Origin: Promethearchaeota archaeon
GTDB taxonomy: Archaea; Asgardarchaeota; Lokiarchaeia; Sigyniarchaeales; SOKP01
Assembly (NCBI GenBank): GCA_048940925.1
Contig: JBHLOC010000027.1
Location: 8,884-72,883 of the forward strand
Length of the DNA stretch: 64,000 bases
Reading direction: 5' to 3'
The translations under genes were made by a program, and so were the position numbers. Shown piece by piece: positions 35,878 through 52,378 of this stretch. Numbering within the stretch: the first letter of the stretch is position 1; every line of letters begins with the position of its first letter. The notes under the pieces are model-generated. The model did no database searches and was not told the origin of the DNA. It saw nothing but the letters and a program-made list of their open reading frames with translations.

Positions 35878-37263
35878 CTATTTGCTATTTTTGATAAATT
35901 TAATCATTTCCTCTGAAATTTGATAGTTGGAAAGTACTAAATCTGCATATCCTTTCTCAGCAGCGAATTTAGGCATAGCATAAAGAATACTCGTTTGTTC
36001 AGATTCTGCGATTGTTTTTCCACCAACCTTTTTAATAGCATGTAATCCCTCAACGCCATCAGATCCCATTCCTGTTAGTAAAATTCCCAAACATCGATTC
36101 TTATAGAGTTTTGCTGCCGAAAAAAACAGGACATCAATAGAAGGCATACAAAAATTAACAGGTGAACCTTTTTTTAATTTAATACAAGGTGTTTTCTTTT
36201 CAACTGAAACTTCCATATGCTTTTCTCCTGGAGCAATGTAACCTATTCCTGATTTAAGTATTTCTCCATGATTAGATACCTTAATCTTTAATTTACATTC
36301 TAAATCTAAATTTTCAGCGAAAGCATCTGTAAAATGAGAAGATAAGTGTTGCACTACTAAGATTGGAGCTGAAAAATCACTAGGAATATCTTTAAGAATA
36401 GTTGTAATTGTTCTAGGACCACCCACACTGGCACCGATAACGATTATATTTGATATTAAGTTAACATTATTGTCGGAGGTAAATTCAGCAAAATTAGTTG
36501 ATGTTAATTTGTGATCAGGAATTAAAGAGGTTGTTTTTAATGAACCTATATTCTCTAAAGTTGAGATTTTTTCAATATTATTTGGTATCGAGATAAGTTC
36601 TTGAGCTTTTTTTCGATTTAAGTTCGATTTCCATTTTGAAATAGCATCTAATTTTGGTAAATTACCTTTTTTAGATTTTTCATTGAAAAATTCCTTTGGT
36701 TTTGCTTTAAAAGTAAAATTATATTCATTTATCTTGTCAACTTCCTCAATAGGTTTTAATCGATTAAGATATTGACCAAAGTCAAAGATTTCATTAACAA
36801 TTTCTTGTCTAATAGTAGTTTTTTTAGTTAAAGACTTTTTCTCTTTCCTAAAAATTCTTTTTATCTGTGATTGTGAAGCTAACAGAACCTTAGCAAGTAG
36901 CTCTTTTCGAAATCGTGGTAAATCTTTTGCTCCAATGCCTCCTGGTTTAATAATATAATCAAATGCTCCCATTAACAATGCTTGAACAGAAGAATCCAAG
37001 TTTTTTGGACTTATTGCTGAAAGTATAATTGTAGGCGTTGGATGGTCTTTCATAATAATTTTAAAAGCATCTAACCCATTCATCTTGGGCATAACTAAAT
37101 CCAAAACTAAGACATCTGGTCTGTGTATTCTAATTAAATTAATAGTTTCTTTCCCATCTTTAGCAAAATCTACATTATTAATGAATTCATTTTTCTTGAG
37201 AATATCTGAGATACTCTTTCTTAAAAAAGCTGAATCATCGGCCACAAGAACATCAATATTCAA
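35878..37263 (-). CDS. cheB: Chemotaxis methylesterase CheB with long linker
   Basis: Receiver domain (ADDS, LDLVMP, KP) plus esterase triad motifs GASVGG, VQHL and TGMGSDG. Confidence 0.93.
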   Translation of the reverse strand: MNIDVLVADDSAFLRKSISDILKKNEFINNVDFAKDGKETINLIRIHRPDVLVLDLVMPKMNGLDAFKIIMKDHPTPTIILSAISPKNLDSSVQALLMGAFDYIIKPGGIGAKDLPRFRKELLAKVLLASQSQIKRIFRKEKKSLTKKTTIRQEIVNEIFDFGQYLNRLKPIEEVDKINEYNFTFKAKPKEFFNEKSKKGNLPKLDAISKWKSNLNRKKAQELISIPNNIEKISTLENIGSLKTTSLIPDHKLTSTNFAEFTSDNNVNLISNIIVIGASVGGPRTITTILKDIPSDFSAPILVVQHLSSHFTDAFAENLDLECKLKIKVSNHGEILKSGIGYIAPGEKHMEVSVEKKTPCIKLKKGSPVNFCMPSIDVLFFSAAKLYKNRCLGILLTGMGSDGVEGLHAIKKVGGKTIAESEQTSILYAMPKFAAEKGYADLVLSNYQISEEMIKFIKNSK

Positions 37264-37337: not shown

Positions 37338-38288
37338 CTAAAATAAACTTGAAATAAGAAAAGTAAATAATTCATCAATTCCCTGTCCAGTGAGGGCAGA
37401 TGTTTCAAAAAAGGGAATATTATATTGTTTTGCTAAGTTTTGAGCTTTTAATTTAAAATTTCCGCGACTTTCAGCTAGATCTATTTTATTTCCTACAAGA
37501 ACATGCGGAATAATTTTATTTCCTAAATATGATTGTGATTCTTCAAACCAATCAGGTATTTTTTTTATGGTATCTATATTTGAATAATCAAATAACAATA
37601 AAACAGCATTTGAATATTCATAGTAAAATCGTCGAATTTTGGCAAAATTCTTTAAACCACCTAAATCAAATAGGTATAATTTTAAATTGTAATCCTTTGA
37701 GATTTTTAATTTTTTCTCGAAAATTGTAATGCCAATAGTGGGGCTATAGATCTCGTTAAAAACACCCTTACAATACATCTCAGTTAACGTACTTTTACCT
37801 ACTGTTTCAGATCCTAAAATTGTGATTGTTTTTACAATACTTTCATTAAATCTTCCGTTAGTTAAGATTAATTTTCCTTTTTCATTTAATTTTGGAATTT
37901 TCATTGCTGTCTCAATATTATTTAAGATAAATGATATTTTCTGAGCAGTAATATAGACATATGGTATATATTTTTCAATATTTGAATAATGGTCTGCGAT
38001 TAAGACAAAAATAGCAGGTGTTCTTCTACCCAGTTCCATATAAAAAAGTTGAAATTCATTAGTATCAAATGTTCCACTCCCAAACGAGGTTTCTGCATAC
38101 CTCTTAATCTTACTTATAGTTTGTTCTAAAATAGCCATAATAGCTCCAATTAATTCTTCATCAAATGCTTTTGTCGATTGACGCGCTATAATTAAACCGT
38201 CTAAATCTACAACTAAAGCTGCTAACAAATCTTGAATTTCATCTAACAAATTACCTAATAAATCTTCCAAAACTGTTAATTTAGACAT
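37338..38288 (-). CDS. Roadblock/LC7 (MglB-like) domain fused to a Rab/Ras-like small GTPase
   Basis: N-terminal LAALVVDLDGLIIA roadblock pattern. G1 GSETVGKST, G2 PTIG, G3 DLGG, G4 NKID, G5 TSAL. Confidence 0.9.
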   Translation of the reverse strand: MSKLTVLEDLLGNLLDEIQDLLAALVVDLDGLIIARQSTKAFDEELIGAIMAILEQTISKIKRYAETSFGSGTFDTNEFQLFYMELGRRTPAIFVLIADHYSNIEKYIPYVYITAQKISFILNNIETAMKIPKLNEKGKLILTNGRFNESIVKTITILGSETVGKSTLTEMYCKGVFNEIYSPTIGITIFEKKLKISKDYNLKLYLFDLGGLKNFAKIRRFYYEYSNAVLLLFDYSNIDTIKKIPDWFEESQSYLGNKIIPHVLVGNKIDLAESRGNFKLKAQNLAKQYNIPFFETSALTGQGIDELFTFLISSLF

Positions 38289-38364: not shown

Positions 38365-39048
38365 TTATAAATTCATACTGTATTTAATATTTAGAATTTC
38401 AAATAAATTCTTTAATAGATTCAAATTTGGTATAAGACAAATTACCCCGTTTAGTTTTATTTCTTTAACTTCCAACATTGTCTTAATTATTATAGAATAA
38501 TCAGAAATTTGAGAATATTTCGCTATAATGTAGTTTAGCATGGCATTTACATTATCAAGTGCAATCTGTGGAAAGGTGGGAATCAATTTAGTCGATAGTA
38601 AATCAGCTAAACTATTTGAATAATGACCAGCTAAAATACTTCCTATTTCTTTTATGATGCTGTGAGAAAATTCATCTAAATCGCTAAGTAGTTTTATTTT
38701 GTCAGCTGATAATTTTTCATATACCGTTAAATTATTTATTAAATTAATTATTGAATCCTTAGAGTAAACCTGAACTATTGTTAATTGAGATTCTTCATTA
38801 ATATTTGAGATTATTCCAAATACATTATTTTTTTTGTTATTAAACAACTCAGGGATTTCCCAAAATGGAATGATATTTACTGATGTTAAAGATACTTCAA
38901 CATTGTTATCTAGTAATTTTGAAAGAGCTGTAATAGCATGCCCCGAACCTATATTTCCTAGCTCTTTTAATAAATCAAGTTGCTCTGGAGTTAGTTCTAC
39001 ATCTACATAATTCTTTATATCATTTTTATTTTTTCTCATTTTTCTCAT
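38365..39048 (-). CDS. cheC: CheY-P phosphatase CheC
   Basis: DLLKELGNIGSGHAITALS and EIGSILAGHY motifs. Confidence 0.9.
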   Translation of the reverse strand: MRKMRKNKNDIKNYVDVELTPEQLDLLKELGNIGSGHAITALSKLLDNNVEVSLTSVNIIPFWEIPELFNNKKNNVFGIISNINEESQLTIVQVYSKDSIINLINNLTVYEKLSADKIKLLSDLDEFSHSIIKEIGSILAGHYSNSLADLLSTKLIPTFPQIALDNVNAMLNYIIAKYSQISDYSIIIKTMLEVKEIKLNGVICLIPNLNLLKNLFEILNIKYSMNL

Positions 39049-39064: not shown

Positions 39065-39604
39065 TTAAAGTTTTTTAAACTCACTTTCTCCGCTTGATCT
39101 TACTAAAACGGAATAATTATGTGTGTTAAATATAATTACTCTTCCAGAGGAGCCACCTAAATCTTCATTTACAATTTTAATATCTGATTTTTTTAATTCT
39201 CTTTTTACGACTTCAATATTATTAGTGCCAATTATATTCTCATCTAAATCGAAAATTTTAGACCCTCCAACGATAATTGCTCTTATATTTTCAATTTTAG
39301 CTCCATGTGAAATCAGTTCATTCTTTAATAATTGTACTGACAGATCAGCATATTTATGAGGATAGTTTATTTTTTTCTTCGTATCTGCTTTTGGGAGTAA
39401 AATATGAGACATAGCACCGACTTTATTATTCTTATCATACAGGATAAGAGCAATACAAGAACCTAATCCGTAAATTGAAATTTTAATATGCACATTAGAT
39501 GATTTGTATTTACTATTGACTAGTGCATAGTGGCCTATTGGAAGGATAATTACACCATCTCTTCCAGTTTTTTCTATACGGCCAATTTGTTCTTCTTCAC
39601 TCAC
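39065..39604 (-). CDS. cheD: Chemoreceptor glutamine deamidase CheD
   Basis: GLGSCIA, SHILLP, KYAD, GGSKIF, IGTNN and EDLGGSSGR. Confidence 0.95.
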   Translation of the reverse strand: MSEEEQIGRIEKTGRDGVIILPIGHYALVNSKYKSSNVHIKISIYGLGSCIALILYDKNNKVGAMSHILLPKADTKKKINYPHKYADLSVQLLKNELISHGAKIENIRAIIVGGSKIFDLDENIIGTNNIEVVKRELKKSDIKIVNEDLGGSSGRVIIFNTHNYSVLVRSSGESEFKKL

Positions 39605-39630
39605 TTTTTAATATTCCTTTTCATAAATTA

Positions 39631-40770
39631 TTAATTATTCGTGTTTATTGTAAACTTAGAACTAAATTTCATCATATAATCTTTAATTTTATAATTGGGA
39701 CATACTATTTGGGCAGCTCCTCTTTTTATTGCCGCTTTAGGCATACCATATACTACACAAGTTTGTTCTGCTTCAGCAATAGTTTTTCCTCCTTCATTTT
39801 TGATAGATTCAAGACCTGCAGCACCATCATCCCCCAATCCAGTTAAAAGGATCCCCAAAACTTGCTTTTTACATGTTTCTGCGGCTGACAAGAATAAAAT
39901 ATCAACAGATGGCATACAGAAATTGACTGGTTCTCCTTTAAATATTTTAATATGTGGAGTATTGTTTCTCACAATTATTTTCATATGTTTTCCTCCAGGA
40001 CTAAGATACGCTTTTCCAGGAATAATTTCTTCACCATTAACTGGTATTTTTACTTCGATCTTGCAAATATTATTTAATGATTTTGCAAGTTCTTTCATGA
40101 AAAAAGAATTTAAATGTTGAACAATAAGTATTGGGCAAGGAAAGTCTTTAGGTATATCTTTTAGAATTGATTTTAGCGTTCGAGGTCCACCAGTACTAGT
40201 TCCTATTACTATAATATTAAGTTTGATTTTAGGTATTGATGGCTTACTTAAAACAGTTGATTTTGCTGAATCCAATGATACGCTAATCCTACTTGGATGA
40301 TGAGTTGATTGTATTTCTGATTGAAGATCTACTGATTTTTTTATTAAATCTGTACGCTTTTCATATGTTTTTTTAATTTTAGCCGCATATAAAATACTTG
40401 AAATTAGTTTTTTTTTAAACTTCGGAAATTCTTCTTTCCAATATCCCTGTGGTTTTAAGATAAAATCGAATGCTCCTAAAAGTAGAGCTTGAACAGAATC
40501 ATCTAACGATCGAGGATTAAGTCCTGTAAATACAATTGTCGGAACGGGGTAATGTTCCGACAGAAATTTAAGGACAGAGATCCCATCAACTTCCGGCATT
40601 ATAAGATCTAATAAAAGTACATCAGGATTATGTTTCCCAATTTTTTGAATTGCCTCTCGTCCATTTCGTGCAGTATCAACCACTTCGATATTTTGGTGAG
40701 ATGAGATCATTTCTGTTATTACTTTTCTTTGATAACTAGAATCTTCAGCAAGTATCACCTTAATTAACAT
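39631..40770 (-). CDS. cheB: Chemotaxis methylesterase CheB
   Basis: Receiver domain (AEDS, LDLIMP) plus GTSTGGP, VQHL, PSVD, TGLGDDG and VYGMPK. Confidence 0.95.
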   Translation of the reverse strand: MLIKVILAEDSSYQRKVITEMISSHQNIEVVDTARNGREAIQKIGKHNPDVLLLDLIMPEVDGISVLKFLSEHYPVPTIVFTGLNPRSLDDSVQALLLGAFDFILKPQGYWKEEFPKFKKKLISSILYAAKIKKTYEKRTDLIKKSVDLQSEIQSTHHPSRISVSLDSAKSTVLSKPSIPKIKLNIIVIGTSTGGPRTLKSILKDIPKDFPCPILIVQHLNSFFMKELAKSLNNICKIEVKIPVNGEEIIPGKAYLSPGGKHMKIIVRNNTPHIKIFKGEPVNFCMPSVDILFLSAAETCKKQVLGILLTGLGDDGAAGLESIKNEGGKTIAEAEQTCVVYGMPKAAIKRGAAQIVCPNYKIKDYMMKFSSKFTINTNN

Positions 40771-40782
40771 TAGAATTTCACC

Positions 40783-41847
40783 TTATCCTGTCTTTAGATA
40801 GATTTGATTCCGAGAATCAATTAATTTTAAAGATTTATGAGTATTAAATATAGATTCTGTTTTACCTAATATTAGCAAACCTCCAGTTGCTAACTCTTTT
40901 TCGATGATTTCTAAAAATCTAATTCGTGCTTTTCGGCTAATATAAATTAGGAGATATCTACAAAAGATAATATCATATTTTATGGATTTCTTGTGACCTT
41001 TTGTAAGATCTTCTTCTATAAATTCAACATAATTTTTAATCTTGTTACTAACTGAAAATTTATCTCGAAAATATCCGTGGATTTTAGTAAAATAATTAAG
41101 TATAAACAAATTTGAAACTTCATTTAAAGCACTTTCATTATATATACCTATATTTGCTCTATTAAGTGCATCCTTATCTATATCTGAAGCAATAATTTTA
41201 AATTGGGGTAAATAAGATATTTGTCTTTTTAAGTTATCTAAAACCATTGCTATTGAAAACGGTTCTTCACCAGATGCACAGGGACATGACCAAATATGTA
41301 TAATATTATTAGAATCTGATTGTGTCCATACTTTTCTATAAATTGATGTTTTTTTGATAAATGATAAAGCTAGCTGAGAATTTGAAAATTTTATGTGTCT
41401 ATATTTATCATCGTTTATTGATGTATTTTTATATAAAACTTCTGTTTCTATTTTGTTGTTAGTTTTTCTTTTTGAATTCGGCTCCATATCACTTATTATA
41501 GCTTTTCTATCAAGATTTAAAGTTTTTAAGAAGAAGTTTTCAAATTGTTTAAATACTTCCCAATTTCTAAAGAAACAAGAATAATTAATATTAAAACTAT
41601 CTAGAAATTTTTGAATTTCTAAGGGATTATCTTTTATATAATAATAATATGAATGAAGCGTGGAACAGTTAACACGGATCATTCGAGCTTTTATTCTACG
41701 CTTAACAAAGTTATCACGATAATATCCAAAATCCAAATTTGTTTCATGACTTAGAAAATCAAGTAAAAGATTATAATAGTCTTCATCAAATGTAATATTT
41801 TCAATCCTTATCACATGAAACACTTTATTTTTCGAGAATTTTTTCAA
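40783..41847 (-). CDS. cheR: Chemotaxis methyltransferase CheR with internal insertion
   Basis: INYSCFFRN, IWSCPCASGEEPFSIAM, ASDID, DIIFCRYLLIY and LILGKTES. Confidence 0.93.
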   Translation of the reverse strand: MKKFSKNKVFHVIRIENITFDEDYYNLLLDFLSHETNLDFGYYRDNFVKRRIKARMIRVNCSTLHSYYYYIKDNPLEIQKFLDSFNINYSCFFRNWEVFKQFENFFLKTLNLDRKAIISDMEPNSKRKTNNKIETEVLYKNTSINDDKYRHIKFSNSQLALSFIKKTSIYRKVWTQSDSNNIIHIWSCPCASGEEPFSIAMVLDNLKRQISYLPQFKIIASDIDKDALNRANIGIYNESALNEVSNLFILNYFTKIHGYFRDKFSVSNKIKNYVEFIEEDLTKGHKKSIKYDIIFCRYLLIYISRKARIRFLEIIEKELATGGLLILGKTESIFNTHKSLKLIDSRNQIYLKTG

Positions 41848-42379
41848 TTTCAGTAAAGCGTTGTTGAATATGGTCCATAGTGTATTTAATATGTTGCTGC
41901 ATTTCCTTAATTTCCGATAAAATTTTTTTTATTTGAGATTTCTGTATTTTTGCTAAAAATCTTTCTCCTACAAGAGAAGATATTTGATGAGTTTTATCTA
42001 TTGTTACACTTGGGATTTTGACTTCTGAAATTTCAGTCTGAGTTATATTATTTCTAGATTCTCCTGGATAACTCAAGTGAAATCTATTTTCTTTTATTTC
42101 TTGAAAAATAATATTAAATTCAGAGGGTTCAATTCCTTGTTTAATAACTTCATATTTAAAATTATAGAATTTTTTTTTAGTTTTTAGCTTTCCTGCCCAA
42201 TTCGCGGCCATATAACGGTGAAATAAACGTGAGTTACTACCCGACCAAATCCAGATTAATTTGAAGTCCTTATCAATAATTAAATAAACTCCATTAGGTT
42301 CAAACATCTTTTCAGGTTTCCCCTTTATTGTTTCGCCATCTACTTTAAAAATGTATTCAAAATACTCACTTTTTAACAT
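41825..42379 (-). CDS. Single gelsolin-repeat protein with C-terminal coiled coil
   Basis: FEPNGVYLIID...IWIWSGSNS...AANWA...VIKQGIEPSEF matches the gelsolin repeat consensus (L.s.dvfilD....iyvW.G..s...v.qG.Ep.eF). Confidence 0.8.
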   Translation of the reverse strand: MLKSEYFEYIFKVDGETIKGKPEKMFEPNGVYLIIDKDFKLIWIWSGSNSRLFHRYMAANWAGKLKTKKKFYNFKYEVIKQGIEPSEFNIIFQEIKENRFHLSYPGESRNNITQTEISEVKIPSVTIDKTHQISSLVGERFLAKIQKSQIKKILSEIKEMQQHIKYTMDHIQQRFTEIEKILEK

Positions 42380-42473
42380 TTTTTAAATTTTAACCTCTAT
42401 TCGATGTCTTTAATAACCTTTAGAATCTAAAAAAGTACTCATAGTAGAAAAGTTTTGAATTTCGCAAAAAAAA

Positions 42474-44432
42474 TTAAGAGTAAAATTTTAAAAGTGCATC
42501 AAGTAATTCTTGTAGGGTATTAAGATTTGGAATGAATAAGAATGTTCCTTGAACTTTAATATCAGTGATAATTACGTTTGTGGTGATTACTAGCGATAAT
42601 TTTCTAAGCAATCCAATTTCTTCTTTTAATATGCTAAATAATTGCTGTCCAGTATCAACTGACATGTCTGGAGGCTCTGTCATAAGCCGTATTCCAAGTA
42701 GATCACCTATAGCACTAACATAATGACTTCCGAGAATATGTCCTAATTCGGAAAGAGCACTTCTATAAAGTTCTGGATAATCATCAGCTTTATCAATTTT
42801 CTTCCTCAAATCGATCTTCTTTTTATCTTTATCATCAACTATTATTGATGTAATATCAATTGAATCTTTTACATTGAATATCGTAAGTACTGTAGCTCTT
42901 GTTTTCCCAATAACGTTACTCCATGCGACTAATAATTTTTCATTCTTTTTACTTATCTTTTGAGCATATTCATCTAATTCAACCATCTCTACTGATGGTA
43001 TATTTATATCAACTCTTTTATTAATCATCTGAGCTAATGCATTTGCTGCGTTTCCAGCTCCAATATTTCCAACTTCTTGTAAGGCATCTCTTTGAAGTTC
43101 CGTAAGCACTATTGAACTAACATCTAATTTATCAGCTGATTTCTCAGACTTATCTTCCATAAATGCTATTTCATGATGAATACCCAATTTATTGAAAAAA
43201 GATTTTAATGTTTCAAGGTCTGGTATAAAGAAGAAGAAACCTTGCAATTGTAATTCAGAGACTTTTATAGACGTTTTAATTATTATCATATATTCAGCTA
43301 ATGATTTTAATTCTTGAGATAGAAATTCCCCTAATTCTGCAGTATTACTCATAGCAAATTCTGGTATATCAATCATAATTTTTGTCCCTAATAAATCTGC
43401 TAAAGCAGAAGCATAATGCCCTGCCATTATGTTTCCCATTTCTGTTATTGTTGAAATAGCAAATTCATCAAGGTCCTTTTTAGACTTAACTTTATTAGGA
43501 TCTATTTTTGATTGATTTCCTGCTAACGTTGCTATTAGATTCATTAAGGGTTTCATTTCAAAAATATTGAGAATAGTAGATTGGGAAGGTTTGTCTATAT
43601 GACAAAAAATACCGCATACTCGTTCATTAGAATTCCCAAATTGCATTGATAATTTATTTAGAGATACAATTCCAACATCAGTTAAGGTCACATCTATTTT
43701 TTTCTTTATGAGTCGAGATAGTGCTGTAACTGCATTTCCAGTTCCAATATTTCCAATCTCTTGAAGTATATCTTTTTGATCATCAGTTAAGACAATTTTT
43801 TTCTCGGAAGTTGAAGTTTTCTTCTTGGTAATTTTCACTTTTTTAGGTGTAATAACAGTTGATTCTATGTCATGAATCACTTGTTTTTTAGGTATCACTT
43901 TTGGGCGTTCCAGAATCTTAGGTTTTAGAATATTTTTCTCTACTTGTATTTCGAAAGATTTAATATAGGGTTGGATTAAAGCATCTAAATCTAGCAAGAT
44001 AAGTGGTTCGTCTTGAAATATCCCTGTTAGTTTTATAAATTTAAAATCTATGTTTGTTTTTACAATCGTTCCTTGTGCTTTAAAAATTGAAATTGGAAAC
44101 TCTCTCACACCAATTACAGAATCAACTAATAAAGCAATTTTTAAATTTTCCCATTCTAAGAGTAGAATACGTGATTTTTCATCTAAAGCATATTCTATAT
44201 CATTACTATAAATATTGTGTTTAAGTGAGATAATTGAATAAATATCTCCTCTGATATTTATAATCCCTACAATTGATTTATCTGCTAACGGTACTGGAAC
44301 TATTTTTTCTCCAGGTACAAAAATCTCTTTAACCTTTTCAACCTCAATAAGATATTTTTCATCTTGTACCTGTATTATAACAGTTGATATATTTTCTTCA
44401 AATTCTATTTTTTCATATTCACTATTTAACAT
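42474..44432 (-). CDS. CheW-CheC-CheC fusion protein
   Basis: N-terminal CheW (VPVPLA..SIVGIINIRG, LLVDSVIGV), then two CheC domains (EIGNIGTG/EMGNIMAG and EVGNIGAG/ELGHILGS). Confidence 0.9.
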   Translation of the reverse strand: MLNSEYEKIEFEENISTVIIQVQDEKYLIEVEKVKEIFVPGEKIVPVPLADKSIVGIINIRGDIYSIISLKHNIYSNDIEYALDEKSRILLLEWENLKIALLVDSVIGVREFPISIFKAQGTIVKTNIDFKFIKLTGIFQDEPLILLDLDALIQPYIKSFEIQVEKNILKPKILERPKVIPKKQVIHDIESTVITPKKVKITKKKTSTSEKKIVLTDDQKDILQEIGNIGTGNAVTALSRLIKKKIDVTLTDVGIVSLNKLSMQFGNSNERVCGIFCHIDKPSQSTILNIFEMKPLMNLIATLAGNQSKIDPNKVKSKKDLDEFAISTITEMGNIMAGHYASALADLLGTKIMIDIPEFAMSNTAELGEFLSQELKSLAEYMIIIKTSIKVSELQLQGFFFFIPDLETLKSFFNKLGIHHEIAFMEDKSEKSADKLDVSSIVLTELQRDALQEVGNIGAGNAANALAQMINKRVDINIPSVEMVELDEYAQKISKKNEKLLVAWSNVIGKTRATVLTIFNVKDSIDITSIIVDDKDKKKIDLRKKIDKADDYPELYRSALSELGHILGSHYVSAIGDLLGIRLMTEPPDMSVDTGQQLFSILKEEIGLLRKLSLVITTNVIITDIKVQGTFLFIPNLNTLQELLDALLKFYS

Positions 44433-44468
44433 TATAATATCCTCTGTTTAACTCATTACAAAATTTTT

Positions 44469-45308
44469 TTATTTTATCATTATACCTTTCCAAATTAATT
44501 CTACATCAGTTTCATCTTCAGTTGCTCCAATAAAGAAATCTGATTGTTTAAAGATTAATATTTGTCCTCCATTTGAATACTTGTAGACATAGTTTAGTAA
44601 ATCATCCATACTTGTATAATTAAATCCTGCAAGTTTTAATTCTGAATTATCTACAATTATTAGATCTTCTTTATTAAAAACGCGATTTTCTTCTATCCAT
44701 TCAATCCATAATTCTGGAGTTATTTCAGTGTTAATTATCTTATAACTTTCATCTAATGGTATATTTCGAAAAGATTTATTAGCAGCTATTATAATCCTAT
44801 GTGGTATAGTATTCTGTTTTTTTGCGAATTCTGCCATATCTTTTAATGATTGATTAAAATTATCTAATTCGAGAGTATCATGACAAGAAATGAAAATTGT
44901 TTCATTTTCTTCAGTTTCTAGTATAAAATCAAAAAATTTAGCAGAATTGTTATTTTGGTTTACCTTCATAGATTTAATAGTTATACCTAAATAATATTTA
45001 ATATATTGATAAAATCGCCATTTAACAGCTAATCTATGATTTATTTCTCTACTAATAAATATCTGGAACAATGTTTTTAGGTCAATTTCATTTAATTTTG
45101 ATATATCCGCCAATTTACCTTTATCTTTGCCAATTTCGAGAAATTTATCATTGGTAGTTGATTTTGAGTTTTTAACAGGTTTCGTTTTAATTTCATCTAA
45201 GAATTTGTTTAATTCATTATAAGTGAATTGTGGCAAGATTTGATCAACCAAATATGAAACATACTTCTTCGATTTATCATCCAACGTTTCAAAAAACTGT
45301 AAATTCAT
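44469..45308 (-). CDS. Hypothetical protein, possible degenerate PD-(D/E)XK-like fold
   Basis: 279-aa soluble ORF inside the che operon. FDFILETEENETIFISC resembles a restriction-endonuclease core without the catalytic Lys. Confidence 0.55.
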   Translation of the reverse strand: MNLQFFETLDDKSKKYVSYLVDQILPQFTYNELNKFLDEIKTKPVKNSKSTTNDKFLEIGKDKGKLADISKLNEIDLKTLFQIFISREINHRLAVKWRFYQYIKYYLGITIKSMKVNQNNNSAKFFDFILETEENETIFISCHDTLELDNFNQSLKDMAEFAKKQNTIPHRIIIAANKSFRNIPLDESYKIINTEITPELWIEWIEENRVFNKEDLIIVDNSELKLAGFNYTSMDDLLNYVYKYSNGGQILIFKQSDFFIGATEDETDVELIWKGIMIK

Positions 45309-45363
45309 TCTATTTCCTCCTATAATTTTTCTTTTTTCGATTTAATTATAATTTTGTTCTGAA

Positions 45364-47379
45364 TTATCCAATAAAAAAGGATTCTAACTCTGAATATTTT
45401 ACATCTTTTCCGGTAATATTTTTTAGATAATACATTACTTCCTTTTCTTGAAAGGGTAATAAAGTTTCAATTGTGAAGAATATTTTACGTTCTCCAGATT
45501 TATCTGCTTTGCTTAACTTATGATCGATATTTGAAGAGACAAGTTCAAATGAGTCTGGGAAAGAATCAGTTAAATCAACATTATTAAGTTTAATATTTGA
45601 ACCATTTCTTGCAGTAATATAAATTGCAAATTCATTGCTAGTCCTCCCTGGAAATATTTCCTTTCCAATCATTAGCTTACGACGTTTATGAGTAATTTTT
45701 AGTTTAGAGGCATCTTTCATATCTAAATTGGTGGTAATTATATAATACTCATTAGATTTTACATCTAAATATTTAGGATAATATGTCTGAACATCCAATG
45801 GAAATTTATAATCTTTATTGGGATCAGGAGTAATAGCGTTAAGTGAATATCGGACCTCTAAAAAGTCATCAACATTTATCAATGATTTACTATTATAATT
45901 CTTCAAATTAACTCTTAGTTCTAAAAGATGTTCACTAGATGGATCAATATCATCTGGATTAACATTTATTATAAAGTCTTCAAATTTTACTTCTCCTGAA
46001 GAATTAAATAATTTGTATTTTGAAATCTCTTTTGAAGGCAAAAAATCTTCCGGTATTCTCTCTTGGACAATTATTCCTTTTACCGGAACTGCACCCATGT
46101 TCTTTATTACAATTTTTACATCAATTTCAGATTGCTCATATGATTTTACCTCTTTCTCTGAAAGTTCCTTTTTTATTAAAACACTTACGGTTCTAAAGAG
46201 AGTATCATCAAAATGAGCAGTAATCAAACAGTTTTTTTCAACCTTATAATCTACAGAATATTCTACTTTCCTTGAAAATGAAGGCTCTTTTTCATCTACA
46301 TAATCAAATTTTTGTGTTATATAATTTTCTTGGGGATGAATTATCAATTTTTCACCAGAACCATTAAAATTCAAGCTTAATAGAGTATTTTTCTTATTCT
46401 TATCTAAAATTAAAATTGATTTCATTATCATCTTAAAATCACTATGATTTTCAAAATAGAGAGAGCAATCCCAATGATTAGGAGAGTGATCTTTCTCCAT
46501 TTTTTTTATTGCATGCAATGCATGAGAATATGCTGAAAAGCGTTCAATTTCTACTTCAGATAAAGTTTGATTCTTCAAATTAAATGATAATTCAATTTTC
46601 CCTGTTCTTATATTCTCTCTCTTTTTTGGAAAAATCTTGCTTATTATTGATATTTCTCTTTTTTCTCCAGGATTCAAATTATTAATAGAACATTCAACTG
46701 TGTTGCTTGTAATAATAAAATCCTTATTATCATTACCCTCAAATTCTAAATCATAAAGATATTTAGAAATATACTTTTTTAGGGTTATGTTTTCTAAAAA
46801 TGACGTTGAAACATTTTCTACAAAAATTGAGAACTTAATCTTATTTTCTTTACCAAGTAAAAGAATTTGATGTTTTTGATTTCCATCATTAATAAAGAGA
46901 GATCCATCTGGGCTATCTCCAAATGATTTAATATCCTCATTTAAGTTCTCAATATTTTCCTCTATTTTTATTAAATCAGGGAGCATTTCTGAATTTACCA
47001 TTTCATATTTCAAAATTTTATTTGAATTTGGTTCAAAGATACCTAAGTTTACATCTTTTTCTGAGTTTTTATCATCAAATTGTGTGCCTGAAAATTGTAA
47101 AAATGCATCCCAAATTCTATCTTTAAGTGAATTATTATAAATTATTATGTTACCATATCCAGTTATAGAAGATCTCTTCTTATCATATTGATATTTATAT
47201 TCTAAAAATTCTTCATTAGCAATCAATATTTCTGAGATTGAGCTTATTACATTTTTTCCTATTTTTAAATCTCTTTTACTAGTTTCTATTACTTTTCCTG
47301 TTTCCCTTATTGGCATACCAAGGAAATTGACTCCAATTTCAGTTTTTAACTCATCTTGGTTAACTTTTTTAAAACCCAT
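45364..47379 (-). CDS. Cytosolic multi-beta-sandwich protein (Ig-like/DUF11- or mu-homology-like domains)
   Basis: No signal peptide or TM. Repeated patterns such as IVIKNMG..VKGIIVQERIPEDF and ITARNGS...VDLTDSFPDSF. Confidence 0.6.
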   Translation of the reverse strand: MGFKKVNQDELKTEIGVNFLGMPIRETGKVIETSKRDLKIGKNVISSISEILIANEEFLEYKYQYDKKRSSITGYGNIIIYNNSLKDRIWDAFLQFSGTQFDDKNSEKDVNLGIFEPNSNKILKYEMVNSEMLPDLIKIEENIENLNEDIKSFGDSPDGSLFINDGNQKHQILLLGKENKIKFSIFVENVSTSFLENITLKKYISKYLYDLEFEGNDNKDFIITSNTVECSINNLNPGEKREISIISKIFPKKRENIRTGKIELSFNLKNQTLSEVEIERFSAYSHALHAIKKMEKDHSPNHWDCSLYFENHSDFKMIMKSILILDKNKKNTLLSLNFNGSGEKLIIHPQENYITQKFDYVDEKEPSFSRKVEYSVDYKVEKNCLITAHFDDTLFRTVSVLIKKELSEKEVKSYEQSEIDVKIVIKNMGAVPVKGIIVQERIPEDFLPSKEISKYKLFNSSGEVKFEDFIINVNPDDIDPSSEHLLELRVNLKNYNSKSLINVDDFLEVRYSLNAITPDPNKDYKFPLDVQTYYPKYLDVKSNEYYIITTNLDMKDASKLKITHKRRKLMIGKEIFPGRTSNEFAIYITARNGSNIKLNNVDLTDSFPDSFELVSSNIDHKLSKADKSGERKIFFTIETLLPFQEKEVMYYLKNITGKDVKYSELESFFIG

Positions 47380-47448
47380 TTCAATTTTCCTCCAAATTTT
47401 ATTTAAACAGCAAATTTTTTCTTATTTTTAAAAAATATTTAATTAACT

Positions 47449-49485
47449 TTATTGTGAAATTTCACCTTCTAGTAATTGTTTTGATATGATATTGAGCACA
47501 TCAAGGATCAAACAAATTTCACCAGAACCAGTGATAGCAGATCCTAAAATATTTCGAGAATCTGAATAGCTTGATTTAAATGGTTTAACTACTAAGTCTA
47601 GTTGTTGAAGTTGTTTATCTGCTACTAAAACTGCCGAATTCTCATTATCTTTTTGACACCATACAGCAACTTTCTTATATGAATTAGTTTCATTTATATC
47701 AACCATTTGTAAGTGTTGATCCAAATGAATAAGAGGGAGTAATTTTGAATTAATTTTGTAATATTGTATCCCTTCATTGTATTCGACTAAATTTGGATTG
47801 AAAAAGTATATTTGCTTGATATTTTCAATGGGTATAGCAAATAAATCTTCTGAAATTTGAAGTAATTGAGCTCTCAAAATAGCCCTTGTAAATGGAACAA
47901 TCAATGTAAATTTAGTCCCAACGTCTTTTTGTGAGGTGATGAGTAAATCTCCTCCTAATTCTTTTATTTTTTCAGCAACAATAGCTAATCCTATCCCTCT
48001 ACCTGATATAATATCAGCATCTGAGAGAGTCGAAAAACCAGACATTAGTATATATTTATTCAATTCATCCGGTGTTAGCTCTTCGATTTGATTAGCGTCA
48101 AAATATCTCTTATTACGGATTTTTTGTTTTATTTTATCATAATTTATACCTGCACCATCATCTTCTATCTCTATGTGAATAGAACCTGCTTTCCTATATG
48201 TTTTTATTCTTAAAATTCCAAGTTCATTTTTACCTTTCCTTTTCCTTTCTTCTGGTGTTTCTATCCCATGGTAAATAGCATTTCTAATAAGATGAACTAA
48301 CGGGGAATTTAATTCCTCTAATATTTTTCTATCAATTTCAACATTAGTGCCTTGTAGAACTAATTTAATTTGTTTACCTGTTTCATTCGCAACATCTCGT
48401 ACAAATCGTTTATATTTTCTAAATGTAGATTCTACACGCACTAATTTTAATCTAAATAGTATTTCTTGAATGTCGAGATAGGGTTTATCCATTTTATCAA
48501 AAAGTCTACCAATAACGCGATCTTGTTTTTCTTTTAATAATTGACTAATTTGATTTTTTAATATTACCAGTTCTCCAAAATAATTCATTAATTCCTCTAA
48601 ATATTCAATATTAACTTTTACACTTGTTATTTTAGTCCCATCCTCAGAATAGTCTTCAACTATTTGAGAGACCCTCTCTACTTCTTCATCGATTAAATCT
48701 TCCTCAAAATCTTGCTCTTTATCCCATTTCTCTTTTAGATTGTTAATTGTGCTTTTAAATTCCTCAGGATTTAAAATTGTAATCACAATACTTTCAATTT
48801 CTAATATTTCATCTAAAATATGTGATATTTGTTGTTTTTGTTGGTCACTAATAAAATATATCTCGAATTCATTCTTCAAAATTGCTCTCTCTAATGATTC
48901 TGGGGCAGGAGTTGTCCAACAAATCTTACCCCTCTCATTTAATGCCCTAAAAATAATAAACAATCTTACTTTCTTAAATACACAAGTTTCCTCCAATCGA
49001 ATATAAATTTTATATGGTTTGTTTTGTCTATTACTGAGAATTTCTGTAATTTCTTCAAGAGTTATTGGTTTAATAAATGTAATATCATAACTATCTGTAT
49101 CAAAACTCTCAAAACTCCTTTTTATCTCTTCTAAAAATTTAGTGTCAATATCTTTTAAATCTCCTTTTTTGACCTTCTTTAAAACATTTTTAAGGACATC
49201 AAGACTCTCAAATAACATATCTATAAAGTCAGTTCGTTTTCCAATTGAAACTTTATTGTCTTTCGCATTTTCTAAAAAAGATTCAAAATGATGACAGAAC
49301 TTTGATAAATTTTCAAAACCCGCCATAGCAGTAAGACCTTTTAGAGTATGGAATGTGAAAAAAAGTTCCTGAATTGGTTTAGGATTTTCCGTATTTTCTT
49401 CTAATTTAAGAATTTCATCCTCAGTTTTTTGAATAAGATCCTCTGCTTCACTAATAAAAAGCTTAATATCGTCATATGAGGCCAT
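47449..49485 (-). CDS. cheA: Chemotaxis histidine kinase CheA
   Basis: HPt FHTLKG, P2 domain, ELMNYFGELV dimerisation region, HLIRNAIYHGIE, EDDGAG, GFST, SGRGIG and C-terminal CheW-like P5. Confidence 0.96.
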   Translation of the reverse strand: MASYDDIKLFISEAEDLIQKTEDEILKLEENTENPKPIQELFFTFHTLKGLTAMAGFENLSKFCHHFESFLENAKDNKVSIGKRTDFIDMLFESLDVLKNVLKKVKKGDLKDIDTKFLEEIKRSFESFDTDSYDITFIKPITLEEITEILSNRQNKPYKIYIRLEETCVFKKVRLFIIFRALNERGKICWTTPAPESLERAILKNEFEIYFISDQQKQQISHILDEILEIESIVITILNPEEFKSTINNLKEKWDKEQDFEEDLIDEEVERVSQIVEDYSEDGTKITSVKVNIEYLEELMNYFGELVILKNQISQLLKEKQDRVIGRLFDKMDKPYLDIQEILFRLKLVRVESTFRKYKRFVRDVANETGKQIKLVLQGTNVEIDRKILEELNSPLVHLIRNAIYHGIETPEERKRKGKNELGILRIKTYRKAGSIHIEIEDDGAGINYDKIKQKIRNKRYFDANQIEELTPDELNKYILMSGFSTLSDADIISGRGIGLAIVAEKIKELGGDLLITSQKDVGTKFTLIVPFTRAILRAQLLQISEDLFAIPIENIKQIYFFNPNLVEYNEGIQYYKINSKLLPLIHLDQHLQMVDINETNSYKKVAVWCQKDNENSAVLVADKQLQQLDLVVKPFKSSYSDSRNILGSAITGSGEICLILDVLNIISKQLLEGEISQ

Positions 49486-49512
49486 AAAATCACCATAATG
49501 TTTAGTTTATGA

Positions 49513-49908
49513 TTATTTCTTATCGATTTTTTTATTTTTCAGTATGCGATCCATGACCTCTAAAATTTGTTCAGTCTTGAAGGGTTTTTGAATAAAATCT
49601 TTTGCCCCTTTTTTCGCTGCTTCAAGCACTAAAGCTTCTTGTCCTAAGGCTGATACCACAACTATCAAAGCTTTAGGATTAATCTTTAGAATCTCTTCTG
49701 TCGCCTCAATACCGCCTTTTTTAGGCATAACCAAATCCATAGTAACTAAATCTGGGTTTAGTTTCTTGTATAAAGATATTGCTTCGACACCGTTTGAAGC
49801 TTCACCAATTATTTCGACCTTCTCGACTTTACTTATAATATTTTTAAGCATATTTCTTGTGAAGGCTGCATCGTCAACTATAAGGACACGTTTCTTTTCA
49901 TTTGTCAT
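49513..49908 (-). CDS. cheY: Chemotaxis response regulator CheY
   Basis: VLIVDDAAF, TMDLVMP, SALGQ and FIQKPF (Bacillus/archaeal F1-type pattern). Confidence 0.95.
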   Translation of the reverse strand: MTNEKKRVLIVDDAAFTRNMLKNIISKVEKVEIIGEASNGVEAISLYKKLNPDLVTMDLVMPKKGGIEATEEILKINPKALIVVVSALGQEALVLEAAKKGAKDFIQKPFKTEQILEVMDRILKNKKIDKK

Positions 49909-49975
49909 ATTTTCAACTCCAATTTGTTTTTGTTTAAAATTTTTTAATATTTTTTTTTATTTTTTAGATTTAATT

Positions 49976-50509
49976 TTATGTTAGAGATGACATTTCTTGT
50001 TGAATTTTAAATTTTTCAACCTCACTCAATACTTTGCTTAAATCAAGCATAATTTTGGGTCGATCTTCGAAGTTTATAATACCTTTGATATATTCCATAG
50101 CAACACTAGTCTGAAAGATAGGACTTAAATCAACAATTTCATTCGCATCAATGTGATCTATATTCATAATACGATCCACATAAAATCCGACTAAAGTATT
50201 CTCAACTTTTAGAATTATTATAAATTTCTTACTTGCACTAAATACTTCTTCTGAAGAGGATTTTTTTGCGCTATACAAAACATATTCATTCAAGTCCAAT
50301 TTCTTTTTTAAATTGACTACATGAATGATTTCTCCTCTGTAATTATAGATCCCATCTATATAATCTAAACTTTTAGGCAATTTTCGTATTTGTCCCGCTT
50401 GTATTATTTCTTTTACATCAACAAGGTCAATTACAAATTGTTCCCATCCAATTTGGAATATAATTATAGAAATTTGATTTCTATCTTTGAAATCTTTGCC
50501 TTGAATCAT
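49976..50509 (-). CDS. cheW: Chemotaxis coupling protein CheW
   Basis: VKEII, LPKSLDYIDGIYNYRGEIIHVVNL, GFYVD and YIKGI. Confidence 0.92.
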   Translation of the reverse strand: MIQGKDFKDRNQISIIIFQIGWEQFVIDLVDVKEIIQAGQIRKLPKSLDYIDGIYNYRGEIIHVVNLKKKLDLNEYVLYSAKKSSSEEVFSASKKFIIILKVENTLVGFYVDRIMNIDHIDANEIVDLSPIFQTSVAMEYIKGIINFEDRPKIMLDLSKVLSEVEKFKIQQEMSSLT

Positions 50510-50528
50510 ATTCTACATACCCTTTTTC

Positions 50529-51697: not shown

Positions 51698-52378
51698 GTG
51701 GAAGAAATTTTGACTTTTCCAAATAAAATAATTTCAAATGCTGACCATAATTTTAAAGAAATTATAGTTTATTGTCCTAAATGTAAAATTAGTAAGAATT
51801 TGAATATACCCATTAAAATCATTAATCAAAGTAAACAACTAACTATAATTTCAATACCTTCAAGATTAAATTGTGAGCATAGTTTTCAAGCTTTTATTGA
51901 TAAAAACTTCAAGGTTAGAGGTTATCAATTAGTAGATTTTGAATTTTCAAAAATAGAACTCTATGAAAGCACTTCAGATATTTTGGATAGGAAAAAATAC
52001 GAAAAAAATGAAGCAACCGAATTCACATCTATGTCAATTTTTCAGGAAATTATAAAACTTCTTAGAAATTGTGTTGATGATAAGGAAGTAGTTGGTAGCG
52101 GCATATTCACCCTAGAAGGAAAAGTACTATATTCTTCATTGCCACAAACTACTTTATTTAATACAATTCGAGAATTCGAAGTAAGAAGTGAGAGAAACTT
52201 AGTTAGTGTTAAAAAAATGTATCTTGAACTTGAGAATGCTGAAAAATTTATTTCCAAATTTATGGAAATTAAGGGAGCAAAATTTAATTTAGTGTTAATG
52301 TTCTCTTTTCGCACCAAATTTGGAATGGGAAATTTACACTTGCGTGATTTATTAAGAAATATAGAAGCTTTAAATTGA
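51698..52378 (+). CDS. Zn-ribbon plus roadblock/profilin-like domain protein
   Basis: CPKC...CEHSFQAFIDKNFKVRGYQ N-terminal domain; C-terminal VVGSGIFTLEGKVLYSSLP. Confidence 0.65.
   Translation: MEEILTFPNKIISNADHNFKEIIVYCPKCKISKNLNIPIKIINQSKQLTIISIPSRLNCEHSFQAFIDKNFKVRGYQLVDFEFSKIELYESTSDILDRKKYEKNEATEFTSMSIFQEIIKLLRNCVDDKEVVGSGIFTLEGKVLYSSLPQTTLFNTIREFEVRSERNLVSVKKMYLELENAEKFISKFMEIKGAKFNLVLMFSFRTKFGMGNLHLRDLLRNIEALN

What the first reader, a model, noticed from the sequence alone, without database searches (positions are those of the whole stretch)
37338..38288. Roadblock-small GTPase fusion with a natural Q61L-type substitution inside the che operon
Seen: G3 reads DLGGL where Ras/Rab-like GTPases have DxxGQ; the other G boxes are intact and there is no C-terminal prenylation Cys. 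Established: Gln-to-Leu at this position is the classic hydrolysis-defective, GTP-locked change, and roadblock proteins act as GAP (MglB) or scaffold (Rag/Ragulator). Inference: either a GTP-locked scaffold or a GTPase that depends on an external catalytic residue, possibly controlled by the che pathway.
Basis: partly seen in the sequence, partly recalled or inferred. Interest (0 to 1): 0.72.

Follow-up and report, generated by a model that had tools for sequence, protein, structure and literature searches.

The report
Glutamine-less roadblock-GTPase in Asgard che operon
This Asgard archaeal gene fuses a roadblock domain to a Rab-like GTP switch whose whole clade lacks the usual catalytic glutamine, and it sits in a chemotaxis gene cluster with no known motor adaptor, so it may be a signalling output or accessory part.

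Summary
The minus-strand ORF at 37338-38288 encodes a 316-aa protein with an N-terminal roadblock domain and a C-terminal Rab-like G domain. G1, G2, G4 and G5 are intact. G3 reads DLGGL, and Leu212 aligns with the Rab/Ras catalytic Gln.

It is not an error or a recent mutation. None of 120 close homologues has Gln. On a tree, a 74-member Gln-less clade is separated by a fully supported branch from Gln-bearing roadblock-GTPases. The Ras-Gly12 position is usually Glu or Asp in this clade.

The short form is tied to che genes. It occurs in 34 of 161 Lokiarchaeia-class genomes, 33 of which have CheW, and 24 carry it within 17 kb of CheW. It usually lies just upstream of a long-linker second CheB. 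It is dispensable: three sister operons have lost it, and one keeps a 53-residue relic. The genome has four MCP genes but no detectable CheF or archaellin.

Best reading: a nucleotide-binding switch with crippled intrinsic hydrolysis, serving as an accessory or output module of this che system. Whether it is GTP-locked or needs a trans catalytic residue is unresolved.

This scan had already found orthologues on other genomes, with similar conclusions. I found no paper describing the che link.

The parts
37338..38288 (-). Whole ORF: roadblock-GTPase fusion, 316 aa plus stop (P0001)
   Evidence: AF2 model: pLDDT 90.5, pTM 0.88.
37923..38288 (-). Roadblock/LC7 domain, residues 1-122, with alpha-beta-beta-alpha-beta-beta-beta-alpha order
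   Evidence: Secondary structure of the AF2 model. A profile of this region hits solved Roadblock/LC7 proteins: 9jue_D at 3.8e-6, CvnB 3leq at 7e-5, and 7yh1, 7f8f and 7f8m. The single-sequence Pfam hit is below the cut-off.
38052..38096 (-). Roadblock loop, residues 65-79 (consensus ETSFGSGTFDTNEF), conserved only in the Gln-less clade
   Evidence: Column counts, 74 versus 21 sequences: T67 in 64/74, G70 in 72/74, G72 in 73/74, N77 in 62/74, F79 in 67/74. These positions are variable in the Gln-bearing relatives.
37842..37922 (-). Inter-domain linker, residues 123-149, with Pro132 invariant in the clade (74/74)
37341..37841 (-). Rab-like small GTPase domain, residues 150-316
   Evidence: Pfam Ras 1.1e-33. 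PDB sequence hits to Rab39B/23/30/21 at about 1e-24. Foldseek Rab33B 3.6e-15. VIA Rab3C Z 26.9, rmsd 1.6 over 167 residues.
37791..37814 (-). P-loop GSETVGKS (159-166), with Glu161 at the Ras Gly12 position
   Evidence: G159, G164 and K165 are invariant. Position 161 is E in 45 and D in 11 of 74 clade members. It is G/A/S/P in the Gln-bearing relatives.
37737..37739 (-). Switch I Thr184 (G2)
   Evidence: T in 74/74 clade members.
37653..37667 (-). G3 / switch II start, DLGGL (208-212). Leu212 (TTA, 37653-37655) replaces the catalytic Gln.
37479..37490 (-). G4 NKID (267-270)
   Evidence: N267 in 73/74; K268 and D270 invariant.
37392..37403 (-). G5 TSAL (296-299)
   Evidence: S297 in 74/74 and A298 in 68/74.
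35878..37263 (-). Downstream partner gene: second CheB (REC + CheB methylesterase, 461 aa) with a linker about 85 residues longer than CheB2's
   Evidence: Pfam and comparison with CheB2. It lies directly downstream of the GTPase in L001-L006, L008, L020 and L021.
38365..39048 (-). Upstream neighbour CheC (227 aa)
   Evidence: same position in L001-L003.
39065..51350 (-). Rest of the che cluster. In transcription order: tandem-longin-like 273 aa, CheW, CheY, CheA, DUF11/Ig-like 671 aa, 279-aa unknown, CheW-CheC-CheC, gelsolin-like 184 aa, CheR, CheB2, CheD.
   Evidence: AF2 and Foldseek of the 273-aa protein.

Best explanation
The gene encodes a two-domain signalling protein. An N-terminal roadblock domain, probably a dimerisation and platform module, is fused to a Rab-like G domain.

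The G domain still binds guanine nucleotide and Mg2+ and still senses the gamma-phosphate, because G1, Thr184, Asp208/Gly211, NKxD and SA are invariant or nearly so. It has lost the cis catalytic Gln (Leu212) and carries Glu at the Ras-Gly12 position. Intrinsic hydrolysis and classical arginine-finger GAP catalysis are therefore expected to be very poor (inferred). The protein would sit mostly GTP-bound unless a partner supplies the catalytic residue in trans, as RapGAP does for Rap or TBC GAPs do for Rabs (inferred).

It belongs to a Lokiarchaeia-class clade that is an ancestral but dispensable accessory gene of a CheF-less, archaellum-less chemosensory cluster (shown by synteny and co-occurrence). 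I propose that it acts as an output or localisation switch of that pathway. It would be coupled to the long-linker CheB or other REC proteins, in the way the Frz chemosensory system acts on the MglA/MglB polarity module in Myxococcus (inferred by analogy).
For: Identity and motifs.

The Gln loss is fixed and clade-wide. None of 120 homologues has Gln. Every full-length relative at 34% identity or more lacks Gln, while more distant roadblock-GTPases mostly have DxxGQ. On the tree, 74 of 74 non-Gln sequences lie on one side of a branch with 100% SH-aLRT support.

The nucleotide-binding residues are invariant and switch II is highly conserved (F215, K217, R219, Y223). In its own genome only this gene and one paralogue, among about 95 small-GTPase ORFs, are roadblock-GTPases with Leu at this site.

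The che link. The operon position is the same in L001-L003. The GTPase + long CheB pair persists where the rest of the cluster is 14 kb away (L020, L021) or absent from the 10-kb flanks read (L004-L006, L008). In another lineage the gene follows the gelsolin-like gene and precedes a REC-PAS-kinase-REC gene (L007).

Across 161 class genomes, 33 of 34 with the short form have CheW, and the exception is 69% complete. Within genera g12 (2 of 42) and g13 (5 of 7), exactly the CheW-positive genomes carry the short form.

The genome has four MCP genes but no match to CheF or archaellin, at 100% marker completeness.

Precedents: Gln-less Group 1 Rup GTPases in signalling operons, and conservons in which a GTPase is the output (PMC4316618).
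Against: There is no biochemical evidence. Nucleotide state, hydrolysis rate, dimerisation and partners are all inferred.

The gene is dispensable. Syntenic operons in G207, G184 and G191 lack it, and G207 keeps a 53-residue relic. 21 CheW-positive genomes have no short-form orthologue; G138, a 6.0-Mb single-contig genome, is one of them. It therefore cannot be the sole or obligatory output.

No clade-specific polar residue that could replace Gln was found in the G domain. No candidate trans-GAP co-varies with it, since the longin-like gene and the 226-aa gene are present with or without it. A close paralogue subfamily of about 440 aa, also Gln-less, is not che-linked. MglB-type GAP action needs the GTPase's own Gln and Arg, which are absent here, so the analogy to MglAB covers the wiring, not the catalysis.
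Confidence: 0.55

Rival explanations
1. Constitutively GTP-bound scaffold. The protein never cycles. It binds GTP as a structural cofactor, as kappaB-Ras or Rnd proteins do, and is controlled by expression, phosphorylation or partner binding rather than by hydrolysis.
For: Both positions whose substitution blocks hydrolysis in Ras are changed clade-wide: Gly12 to Glu/Asp and Gln61 to Leu/Ile. No replacement catalytic residue was found in the G domain. kappaB-Ras1 is among the structural matches (9qu1_F, Z 19.6). That it naturally carries Leu at this site is from my own knowledge.
Against: Thr184, Gly211 and switch II are under very strong constraint. That fits a conformational switch at least as well as a static cofactor site, although locked GTPases also keep these residues. 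Sequence alone cannot decide.
Confidence: 0.3
2. Dimerisation-activated GTPase. Roadblock-mediated homo- or heterodimerisation brings two G domains together, or brings the conserved roadblock loop 65-79 (T67, S71, N77) to the active site, so that catalysis occurs in cis or in the dimer without a separate GAP.
For: A roadblock loop motif (ETSFGSGTFDTNEF) became fixed in the same clade that lost Gln. The pTM of 0.88 implies a confidently packed two-domain model. Fusion-chain matches extend from residue 66-70 into the G domain: Rab27a-Slp2a 7opp, and the GAP/GEF fusions 5jcp, 3lvr and 6bbq. This hints that the C-terminal half of the roadblock domain lies on the switch face.
Against: Model coordinates could not be inspected with these tools, so no distance from the loop to the active site is known. 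The fusion-chain matches are indirect. Asn77 is Asp or Glu in 12 of 74 members.
Confidence: 0.12
3. Cation-dependent HAS-GTPase mechanism. Like MnmE, FeoB or Era, it carries a hydrophobic residue at the Gln site and hydrolyses GTP efficiently using K+ and other elements.
For: Hydrophobic Leu/Ile/Val/Phe at the Gln position in most members. This is the defining feature of HAS-GTPases (own knowledge).
Against: The P-loop Asn that coordinates K+ in those enzymes (GxxNxGKS, own knowledge) is absent. Here position 162 is A/K/S/Q/T. The fold and best sequence matches are Rab/Ras, not the TrmE-Era-EngA-YihA-septin class.
Confidence: 0.04
4. Artefact or decay: a sequencing error, a pseudogene, or a hitch-hiking gene unrelated to chemosensing.
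For: The gene has been lost from some operons.
Against: The frame is intact and there are about 120 full-length homologues at 47-78% identity with invariant G motifs. The Leu codon is two changes from Gln. Che linkage is conserved across at least nine genera and three operon arrangements.
Confidence: 0.01

Closest known systems
Asgard roadblock-GTPase ('RB-GTPase') fusion architectures catalogued in Prometheoarchaeum MK-D1 (Tran et al. 2024, PMC10933270)
   Same: The domain order is the same: roadblock at the N-terminus and a small GTPase at the C-terminus. That paper lists RB-GTPase, GTPase-RB and longin-GTPase-RB designs. Solved Asgard roadblock proteins (7yh1, 7f8f, 7f8m) match the roadblock profile.
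   Different: The paper has no occurrence of 'chemotaxis', and the passages found for 'Gln' and 'catalytic' do not concern a Gln-less clade. The MK-D1-like family (f3) genomes searched here have only the Gln-bearing paralogues, with best E about 1e-42 to 1e-50.
MglA/MglB polarity module under the Frz chemosensory system (Myxococcus xanthus, Thermus thermophilus)
   Same: A Ras-like GTPase works with a roadblock protein and is wired to a che-type pathway through response regulators (PMC3441718; PMC4316618).
   Different: MglA and MglB are separate proteins, and mglA does not lie next to the genes of its response-regulator and Frz partners. MglB acts by positioning MglA's own Gln and Arg finger. 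Here Gln is absent, and no conserved Arg is seen in switch I or the linker. MglA ranks low among structural matches (5ymx, Z 18.0, against Rab3C at 26.9).
Rag/Gtr GTPases
   Same: A G domain is covalently fused to a roadblock domain that serves as a dimerisation platform. They are regulated by longin/roadblock complexes.
   Different: The order is reversed (G then roadblock in Rags). Rags keep the catalytic Gln. The Gtr1_RagA Pfam model does not hit this protein. RagD and the Lokiarchaeal RagA-like protein 8yl2 score lower than Rabs (Z 18.9-19.8).
Actinobacterial conservons (CvnA-D) and Group 1 Rup GTPases (Wuichet and Sogaard-Andersen 2014, PMC4316618)
   Same: Both are operons that join sensor and two-component parts, a roadblock protein and a small GTPase proposed to be the output. 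Group 1 Rup GTPases lack the G3 Gln, and that paper speculates it is supplied in trans. CvnB (3leq) matches the roadblock profile at 7e-5.
   Different: They are bacterial, their proteins are separate, and they use histidine-kinase input, not CheA/MCP input. Here the G domain is Rab-like, not MglA/Rup-like.
Naturally Gln-less eukaryotic small GTPases (Rap with RapGAP Asn thumb, kappaB-Ras, Rnd/RhoE)
   Same: A Ras-fold switch with a non-Gln residue at the position-61 equivalent, which is either GTP-locked or dependent on a trans catalytic residue (own knowledge). kappaB-Ras1 is a structural match.
   Different: No orthology is implied. These proteins have no roadblock fusion and no chemosensory context.

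Membership tests
Ras-superfamily small GTPase (Rab-like) | G1 P-loop GxxxxGK[ST] | tested here: met
   GSETVGKS; G159, G164 and K165 are invariant in 95 sequences.
Ras-superfamily small GTPase (Rab-like) | G2 switch I Thr, G3 DxxG, G4 NKxD, G5 SAx | tested here: met
   T184 74/74, D208 72/74, G211 73/74, N267 73/74, K268 and D270 invariant, S297 74/74.
Ras-superfamily small GTPase (Rab-like) | Catalytic Gln after DxxG (Ras Q61) | tested here: not met
   Leu212 aligns to the Rab Gln. None of 120 homologues has Gln.
Ras-superfamily small GTPase (Rab-like) | G-domain fold | tested here: met
   Rab3C Z 26.9, rmsd 1.6 over 167 residues; Rab33B Foldseek E 3.6e-15.
Rab family proper | C-terminal prenylation Cys; Rab-family motifs such as WDTAGQ and YYRGA | tested here: not met
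   The C-terminus is ...ISSLF with no Cys. Trp is replaced by F/L/Y at 207, and YYxGA by YYxYS in the clade. The Gln-bearing relatives keep W and GA.
Roadblock/LC7 (MglB-like) domain | alpha-beta-beta-alpha-beta-beta-beta(-alpha) fold | tested here: met
   AF2 elements H3-17, E21-28, E33-38, H44-63, E71-75, E79-86, E92-99, H104-122, with pLDDT about 84-94 except 72 in block 61-70.
Roadblock/LC7 (MglB-like) domain | Sequence-profile match to known Roadblock proteins | tested here: met
   The A2 profile hits 9jue_D at 3.8e-6, 3leq at 7e-5 and 7yh1 at 2e-4. The single-sequence Pfam hit is only 18.1 bits against a 23-bit cut-off.
MglA/MglB GTPase-GAP module | Intrinsic Gln and Arg finger in the GTPase, which the roadblock GAP positions | tested here: not met
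   There is no Gln at 212. No Arg is conserved in switch I (176-190) or in the linker.
Rag/Gtr GTPases | N-terminal G domain followed by a C-terminal roadblock domain; Gtr1_RagA signature | tested here: not met
   The order is reversed. There is no Gtr1_RagA hit for this protein.
HAS-GTPases, cation-dependent subclass | Hydrophobic residue in place of the catalytic Gln | tested here: met
   L 50, I 10, V 2 of 74 at position 212.
HAS-GTPases, cation-dependent subclass | P-loop Asn (GxxNxGKS) for K+ coordination | tested here: not met
   Position 162 is A/K/S/Q in the clade and T here.
Accessory gene of the Lokiarchaeia-type che cluster | Conserved co-location and co-occurrence with che genes | tested here: met
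   33 of 34 genomes with the short form have CheW, and 24 carry it on the same contig within 17 kb. Loci L001-L008, L020 and L021.
Accessory gene of the Lokiarchaeia-type che cluster | Physical or functional interaction with Che proteins | not testable with these tools
   This needs pull-downs, multimer models or genetics.

The most novel reading that the evidence does not exclude
In these archaellum-less Lokiarchaeia, the bacterial-type chemoreceptor/CheA pathway signals through this Gln-less roadblock-GTPase to the actin cytoskeleton or membrane protrusions. It would act together with the operon's tandem-longin-like and gelsolin-like proteins. That would be a prokaryotic version of the eukaryotic 'receptor to small GTPase to actin' logic of directed cell behaviour.
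Probability: 0.2. Interest if true: 0.9.

Novelty: new variant of a known kind. Interest (0 to 1): 0.64.

Why it matters
Asgard genomes hold dozens of small GTPases (about 95 ORFs in this genome), and almost none has an assigned pathway. This clade has one: a che cluster that lacks the only known archaeal link to motility (CheF and the archaellum).

A related Lokiarchaeon, 'Ca. L. ossiferum', has been shown to build putative chemoreceptor arrays (PMC9834061). The che cluster examined in G138, a 6.0-Mb single-contig genome of family f3 that I guess (not checked) to be L. ossiferum, is of a different type and has no short-form gene.

If the GTPase is an output or localisation switch, it gives a concrete and testable entry point into two questions. 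The first is what chemosensing controls in cells that move or reshape by actin-filled protrusions. The second is how GTPase/roadblock/longin regulation worked before eukaryotes.

The fixed loss of both the Gly12-type and Gln61-type residues also makes it a natural test case for non-canonical GTP hydrolysis in a Rab-like fold.

Tried and rejected
- **Sequencing error or pseudogene:** rejected.
- **REC fusions in longer relatives:** the N-terminal extensions of the roughly 480-aa relatives gave weak Longin hits in two of six (P0138, P0092) and no REC hit. The roughly 430-aa forms carry an unannotated C-terminal extension.
- **184-aa operon protein as the detached longin of those fusions:** BLASTP found no similarity.
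- **Long CheB 'insert' as a domain:** it is about 85 residues longer than CheB2's linker, Lys-rich and variable in length, so it is probably a linker.
- **226-aa protein as a roadblock protein:** hhalign probability 0.3, so inconclusive. Pfam and the Atlas give no family.
- **Roadblock profile against the 273-aa protein:** hhalign probability 3, inconclusive. Its fold was then predicted instead.
- **Co-loss of cheR with the GTPase:** the in-operon cheR is missing in the three loci that lost the GTPase. But CheR-domain genes are common elsewhere, including in G207 and G191 and in che-less genomes, so no conclusion can be drawn.
- **Che status of the genomes behind L004, L006, L007 and L008:** those genomes are not held.
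- **Literature:** searches for Asgard with chemotaxis, GTPase and CheB, with gelsolin and CheA, and for LokiRagO found no paper describing this link.

Full report
**Observation.**
The minus-strand ORF at 37338-38288 encodes 316 residues. Pfam finds a Ras-family domain at 156-314 (E 1.1e-33) and a sub-threshold Robl_LC7 match at 12-54. The G boxes are:
- G1 GSETVGKS
- G2 Thr184
- G3 DLGGL
- G4 NKID
- G5 TSAL

The protein ends ...ISSLF, with no Cys. HMMER alignments to solved Rab39B, Rab23 and Rab30 put FDLGGL opposite WDTAGQ. Leu212 (TTA, window 37653-37655) therefore occupies the catalytic Gln position. The neighbours are CheC upstream and a REC-CheB downstream, inside a 14-gene co-oriented che cluster.

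**Structure.**
An AlphaFold2 model built on 95 homologues is confident (pLDDT 90.5, pTM 0.88). Residues 3-122 form alpha-beta-beta-alpha-beta-beta-beta-alpha, the roadblock order. A profile of this region hits solved Roadblock/LC7 proteins, including Asgard ones and Streptomyces CvnB. Residues 150-316 superpose best on Rabs:
- Rab3C, Z 26.9, rmsd 1.6
- Rab33B, Foldseek E 3.6e-15

MglA, Rag and Roc score lower. Some matches to GTPase-effector or GTPase-GAP fusion chains extend back to residue 66-70. This is a weak hint that the C-terminal half of the roadblock domain lies on the switch face. I could not inspect the coordinates.

**Is the Leu conserved?**
Yes. None of 120 homologues at 47-78% identity has Gln. 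L and I dominate, with some S, A, V, F, T and K. These homologues carry NCBI names such as Promethearchaeota, Lokiarchaeia, Thor-, Hod- and Hermodarchaeota.

An exhaustive search of 1.8 billion representatives gave the same picture. Every full-length roadblock-GTPase at 34% identity or more lacks Gln, whereas more distant ones mostly read DxxGQ. A maximum-likelihood tree puts 74 non-Gln sequences on one side of a branch with 100% SH-aLRT support. The other side holds 19 Gln and 2 non-Gln sequences. The loss therefore happened once, at the base of the clade, and has been kept.

The same clade shifted the P-loop. Glu or Asp occupies the Ras-Gly12 position in 56 of 74 members, where the Gln-bearing relatives have small residues. 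The residues for nucleotide binding, Mg2+ binding and gamma-phosphate sensing are invariant or nearly so, and switch II is strongly conserved. The protein is therefore a constrained nucleotide-binding switch, not a decayed one.

No new conserved polar residue appears in the G domain. The clade-specific conserved positions lie mostly in the roadblock domain, notably the loop ETSFGSGTFDTNEF at 65-79. In the window's own genome about 95 small-GTPase ORFs were found, and 62 have Gln. Only this gene and one 453-aa paralogue (DLSSLK) are roadblock-GTPases with Leu.

**Genomic context.**
Four arrangements were seen:
- L001-L003 have the same order, CheC, GTPase, long CheB.
- L004-L006 and L008 show no other che gene within the 10-kb flanks read, but the GTPase is still followed directly by a long REC-CheB of 466-541 aa.
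- In L020 and L021 that pair lies about 14 kb from the rest of the cluster.
- In L007, and by position in G273, the GTPase lies at the CheW-CheC end of the cluster. In L007 it follows the gelsolin-like gene and precedes a REC-PAS-kinase-REC gene and a Rag-like GTPase.

Across the 161 genomes of the class, 34 have a short-form orthologue (E of 1e-76 or better, frames of about 320-340 aa). Of these, 33 have CheW, and the exception is 69% complete. In 24 genomes the GTPase and CheW lie on one contig within 17 kb. In genus g12 only 2 of 42 genomes have CheW, and those same two have the short form. In g13 the same five of seven have both. Kin are not independent, so I give no statistic.

The link is one-way. 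21 CheW-positive genomes lack the short form. One of them is G138, a 6.0-Mb single-contig genome (possibly L. ossiferum; this is my guess, not checked), whose cluster is of another type. Three sister operons (G207, G184, G191) keep the synteny but have lost the gene. G207 retains a relic of its first 53 residues (58% identity, E 7e-16). A Gln-less paralogue subfamily of about 440 aa is not che-linked.

**The pathway around it.**
The genome is 100% complete by markers. It has four MCP-signal genes elsewhere but no match to CheF or archaellin. The cluster's first gene (273 aa) folds as two tandem beta-beta-alpha-beta-beta-beta-alpha units (pLDDT 81). It matches multi-longin GEF subunits (Mon1-Ccz1, Fuzzy-Inturned, BLOC-3) and single LAMTOR/roadblock chains at modest E-values. 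It also matches dCache and PAS chains, so the assignment is 'longin/roadblock-like', not firm.

That gene and the divergent 226-aa gene are present with or without the GTPase. They are constants of the cluster, not GTPase-specific partners. The second CheB differs from the first mainly by a Lys-rich linker about 85 residues longer.

**Mechanism.**
Shown:
- a fused roadblock plus Rab-like switch;
- intact nucleotide-binding residues;
- fixed absence of the cis Gln and a fixed acidic residue at the Gly12 position;
- conserved but dispensable membership of a CheF-less che cluster.

Inferred:
- intrinsic hydrolysis and arginine-finger GAP catalysis are crippled;
- the protein is GTP-bound by default, or is switched off by a partner that supplies the catalytic residue;
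- the roadblock domain dimerises or docks it;
- it works as an accessory output or localisation switch of the che pathway.

The Frz to MglA/MglB circuit, conservons, and Gln-less Group 1 Rup GTPases in signalling operons are precedents for the wiring (PMC3441718; PMC4316618). MglB-style catalysis cannot apply, because it relies on the GTPase's own Gln and Arg. The cation-dependent HAS-GTPase mechanism is unlikely, because the P-loop Asn is missing.

**Novelty.**
Roadblock-GTPase fusions in Asgard archaea are known (PMC10933270). Che genes and putative chemoreceptor arrays in Lokiarchaeia are also known (PMC9834061). I found no paper that links the two or describes this Gln-less clade.

Earlier notes of this scan describe the same operon and orthologues on other genomes, and reached similar conclusions. 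I re-derived the main points independently and added the following:
- the relic in G207;
- the class-wide contingency table of the short form against CheW;
- the change at the Gly12 position;
- the clade-specific roadblock loop;
- the non-che paralogue subfamily;
- the test showing that the proposed partners do not co-vary with the gene.

Noticed in passing
window 50529-51350 (-): The first gene of the che cluster (273 aa, no Pfam hit) is predicted to be two tandem longin/roadblock-like domains (pLDDT 81, pTM 0.80). Foldseek matches Mon1-Ccz1, Fuzzy-Inturned, BLOC-3 and LAMTOR chains, but also dCache/PAS chains. It precedes CheW in 12 of the 13 upstream regions read (none was found in G128's L032), whether or not the GTPase is present.
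   Followed up: partly
window 51698-52378 (+): A 226-aa protein with an N-terminal CxxC...CxH motif and no family assignment. It is a conserved, divergently oriented neighbour of the che cluster in at least eight other genomes. In L026 (8187-8868) it is split into two frames, which suggests a frameshift.
   Followed up: partly
L009:12650-12808 (G207): A relic of the roadblock-GTPase gene (first 53 residues, 58% identity) lies in the 281-nt gap between cheC and the long cheB. This is direct evidence of secondary loss. The in-operon cheR is also missing in this locus, in L010 and in L013 (a 68-aa fragment).
   Followed up: yes
G000:C30:99938-101299 (L019:2939-4300): An own-genome paralogue (453 aa, 48% identical) reads DLSSLK. 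It has lost the Gln and also the second Gly of DxxG, and it carries a C-terminal extension of about 120 aa. Its neighbours are a TPP enzyme and a radical-SAM gene, not che genes.
   Followed up: partly
whole genome G000 (e.g. C40:70787-71329, C41:45790-46335, several on C11): 19 of about 95 small-GTPase ORFs have Glu at the catalytic Gln position (DFxGE), often with GKxD or SKxD in place of NKxD. This is a second, larger Gln-less family in the same genome.
   Followed up: no
L007:10980-14498: In one lineage the che-linked GTPase is followed by a REC-PAS-HisKA-HATPase-REC hybrid kinase (821 aa) and a Rag-like GTPase (307 aa, Gtr1_RagA 1.4e-24).
   Followed up: partly
class-wide, e.g. G224:C12:13730-14305, G274:C167:1147-1713: CheR-domain proteins of 700-1300 aa (large fusions) are common in Lokiarchaeia genomes, including those without CheW (74 of 161 genomes have CheR, against 54 with CheW).
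   Followed up: no
L001 / G400:C1: In one complete 3.3-Mb genome the cluster is split. CheW-CheC through the long CheB lie at 1.44 Mb. The only other CheW-domain match, in a 694-aa frame whose size fits CheA, lies at 0.36 Mb.
   Followed up: no
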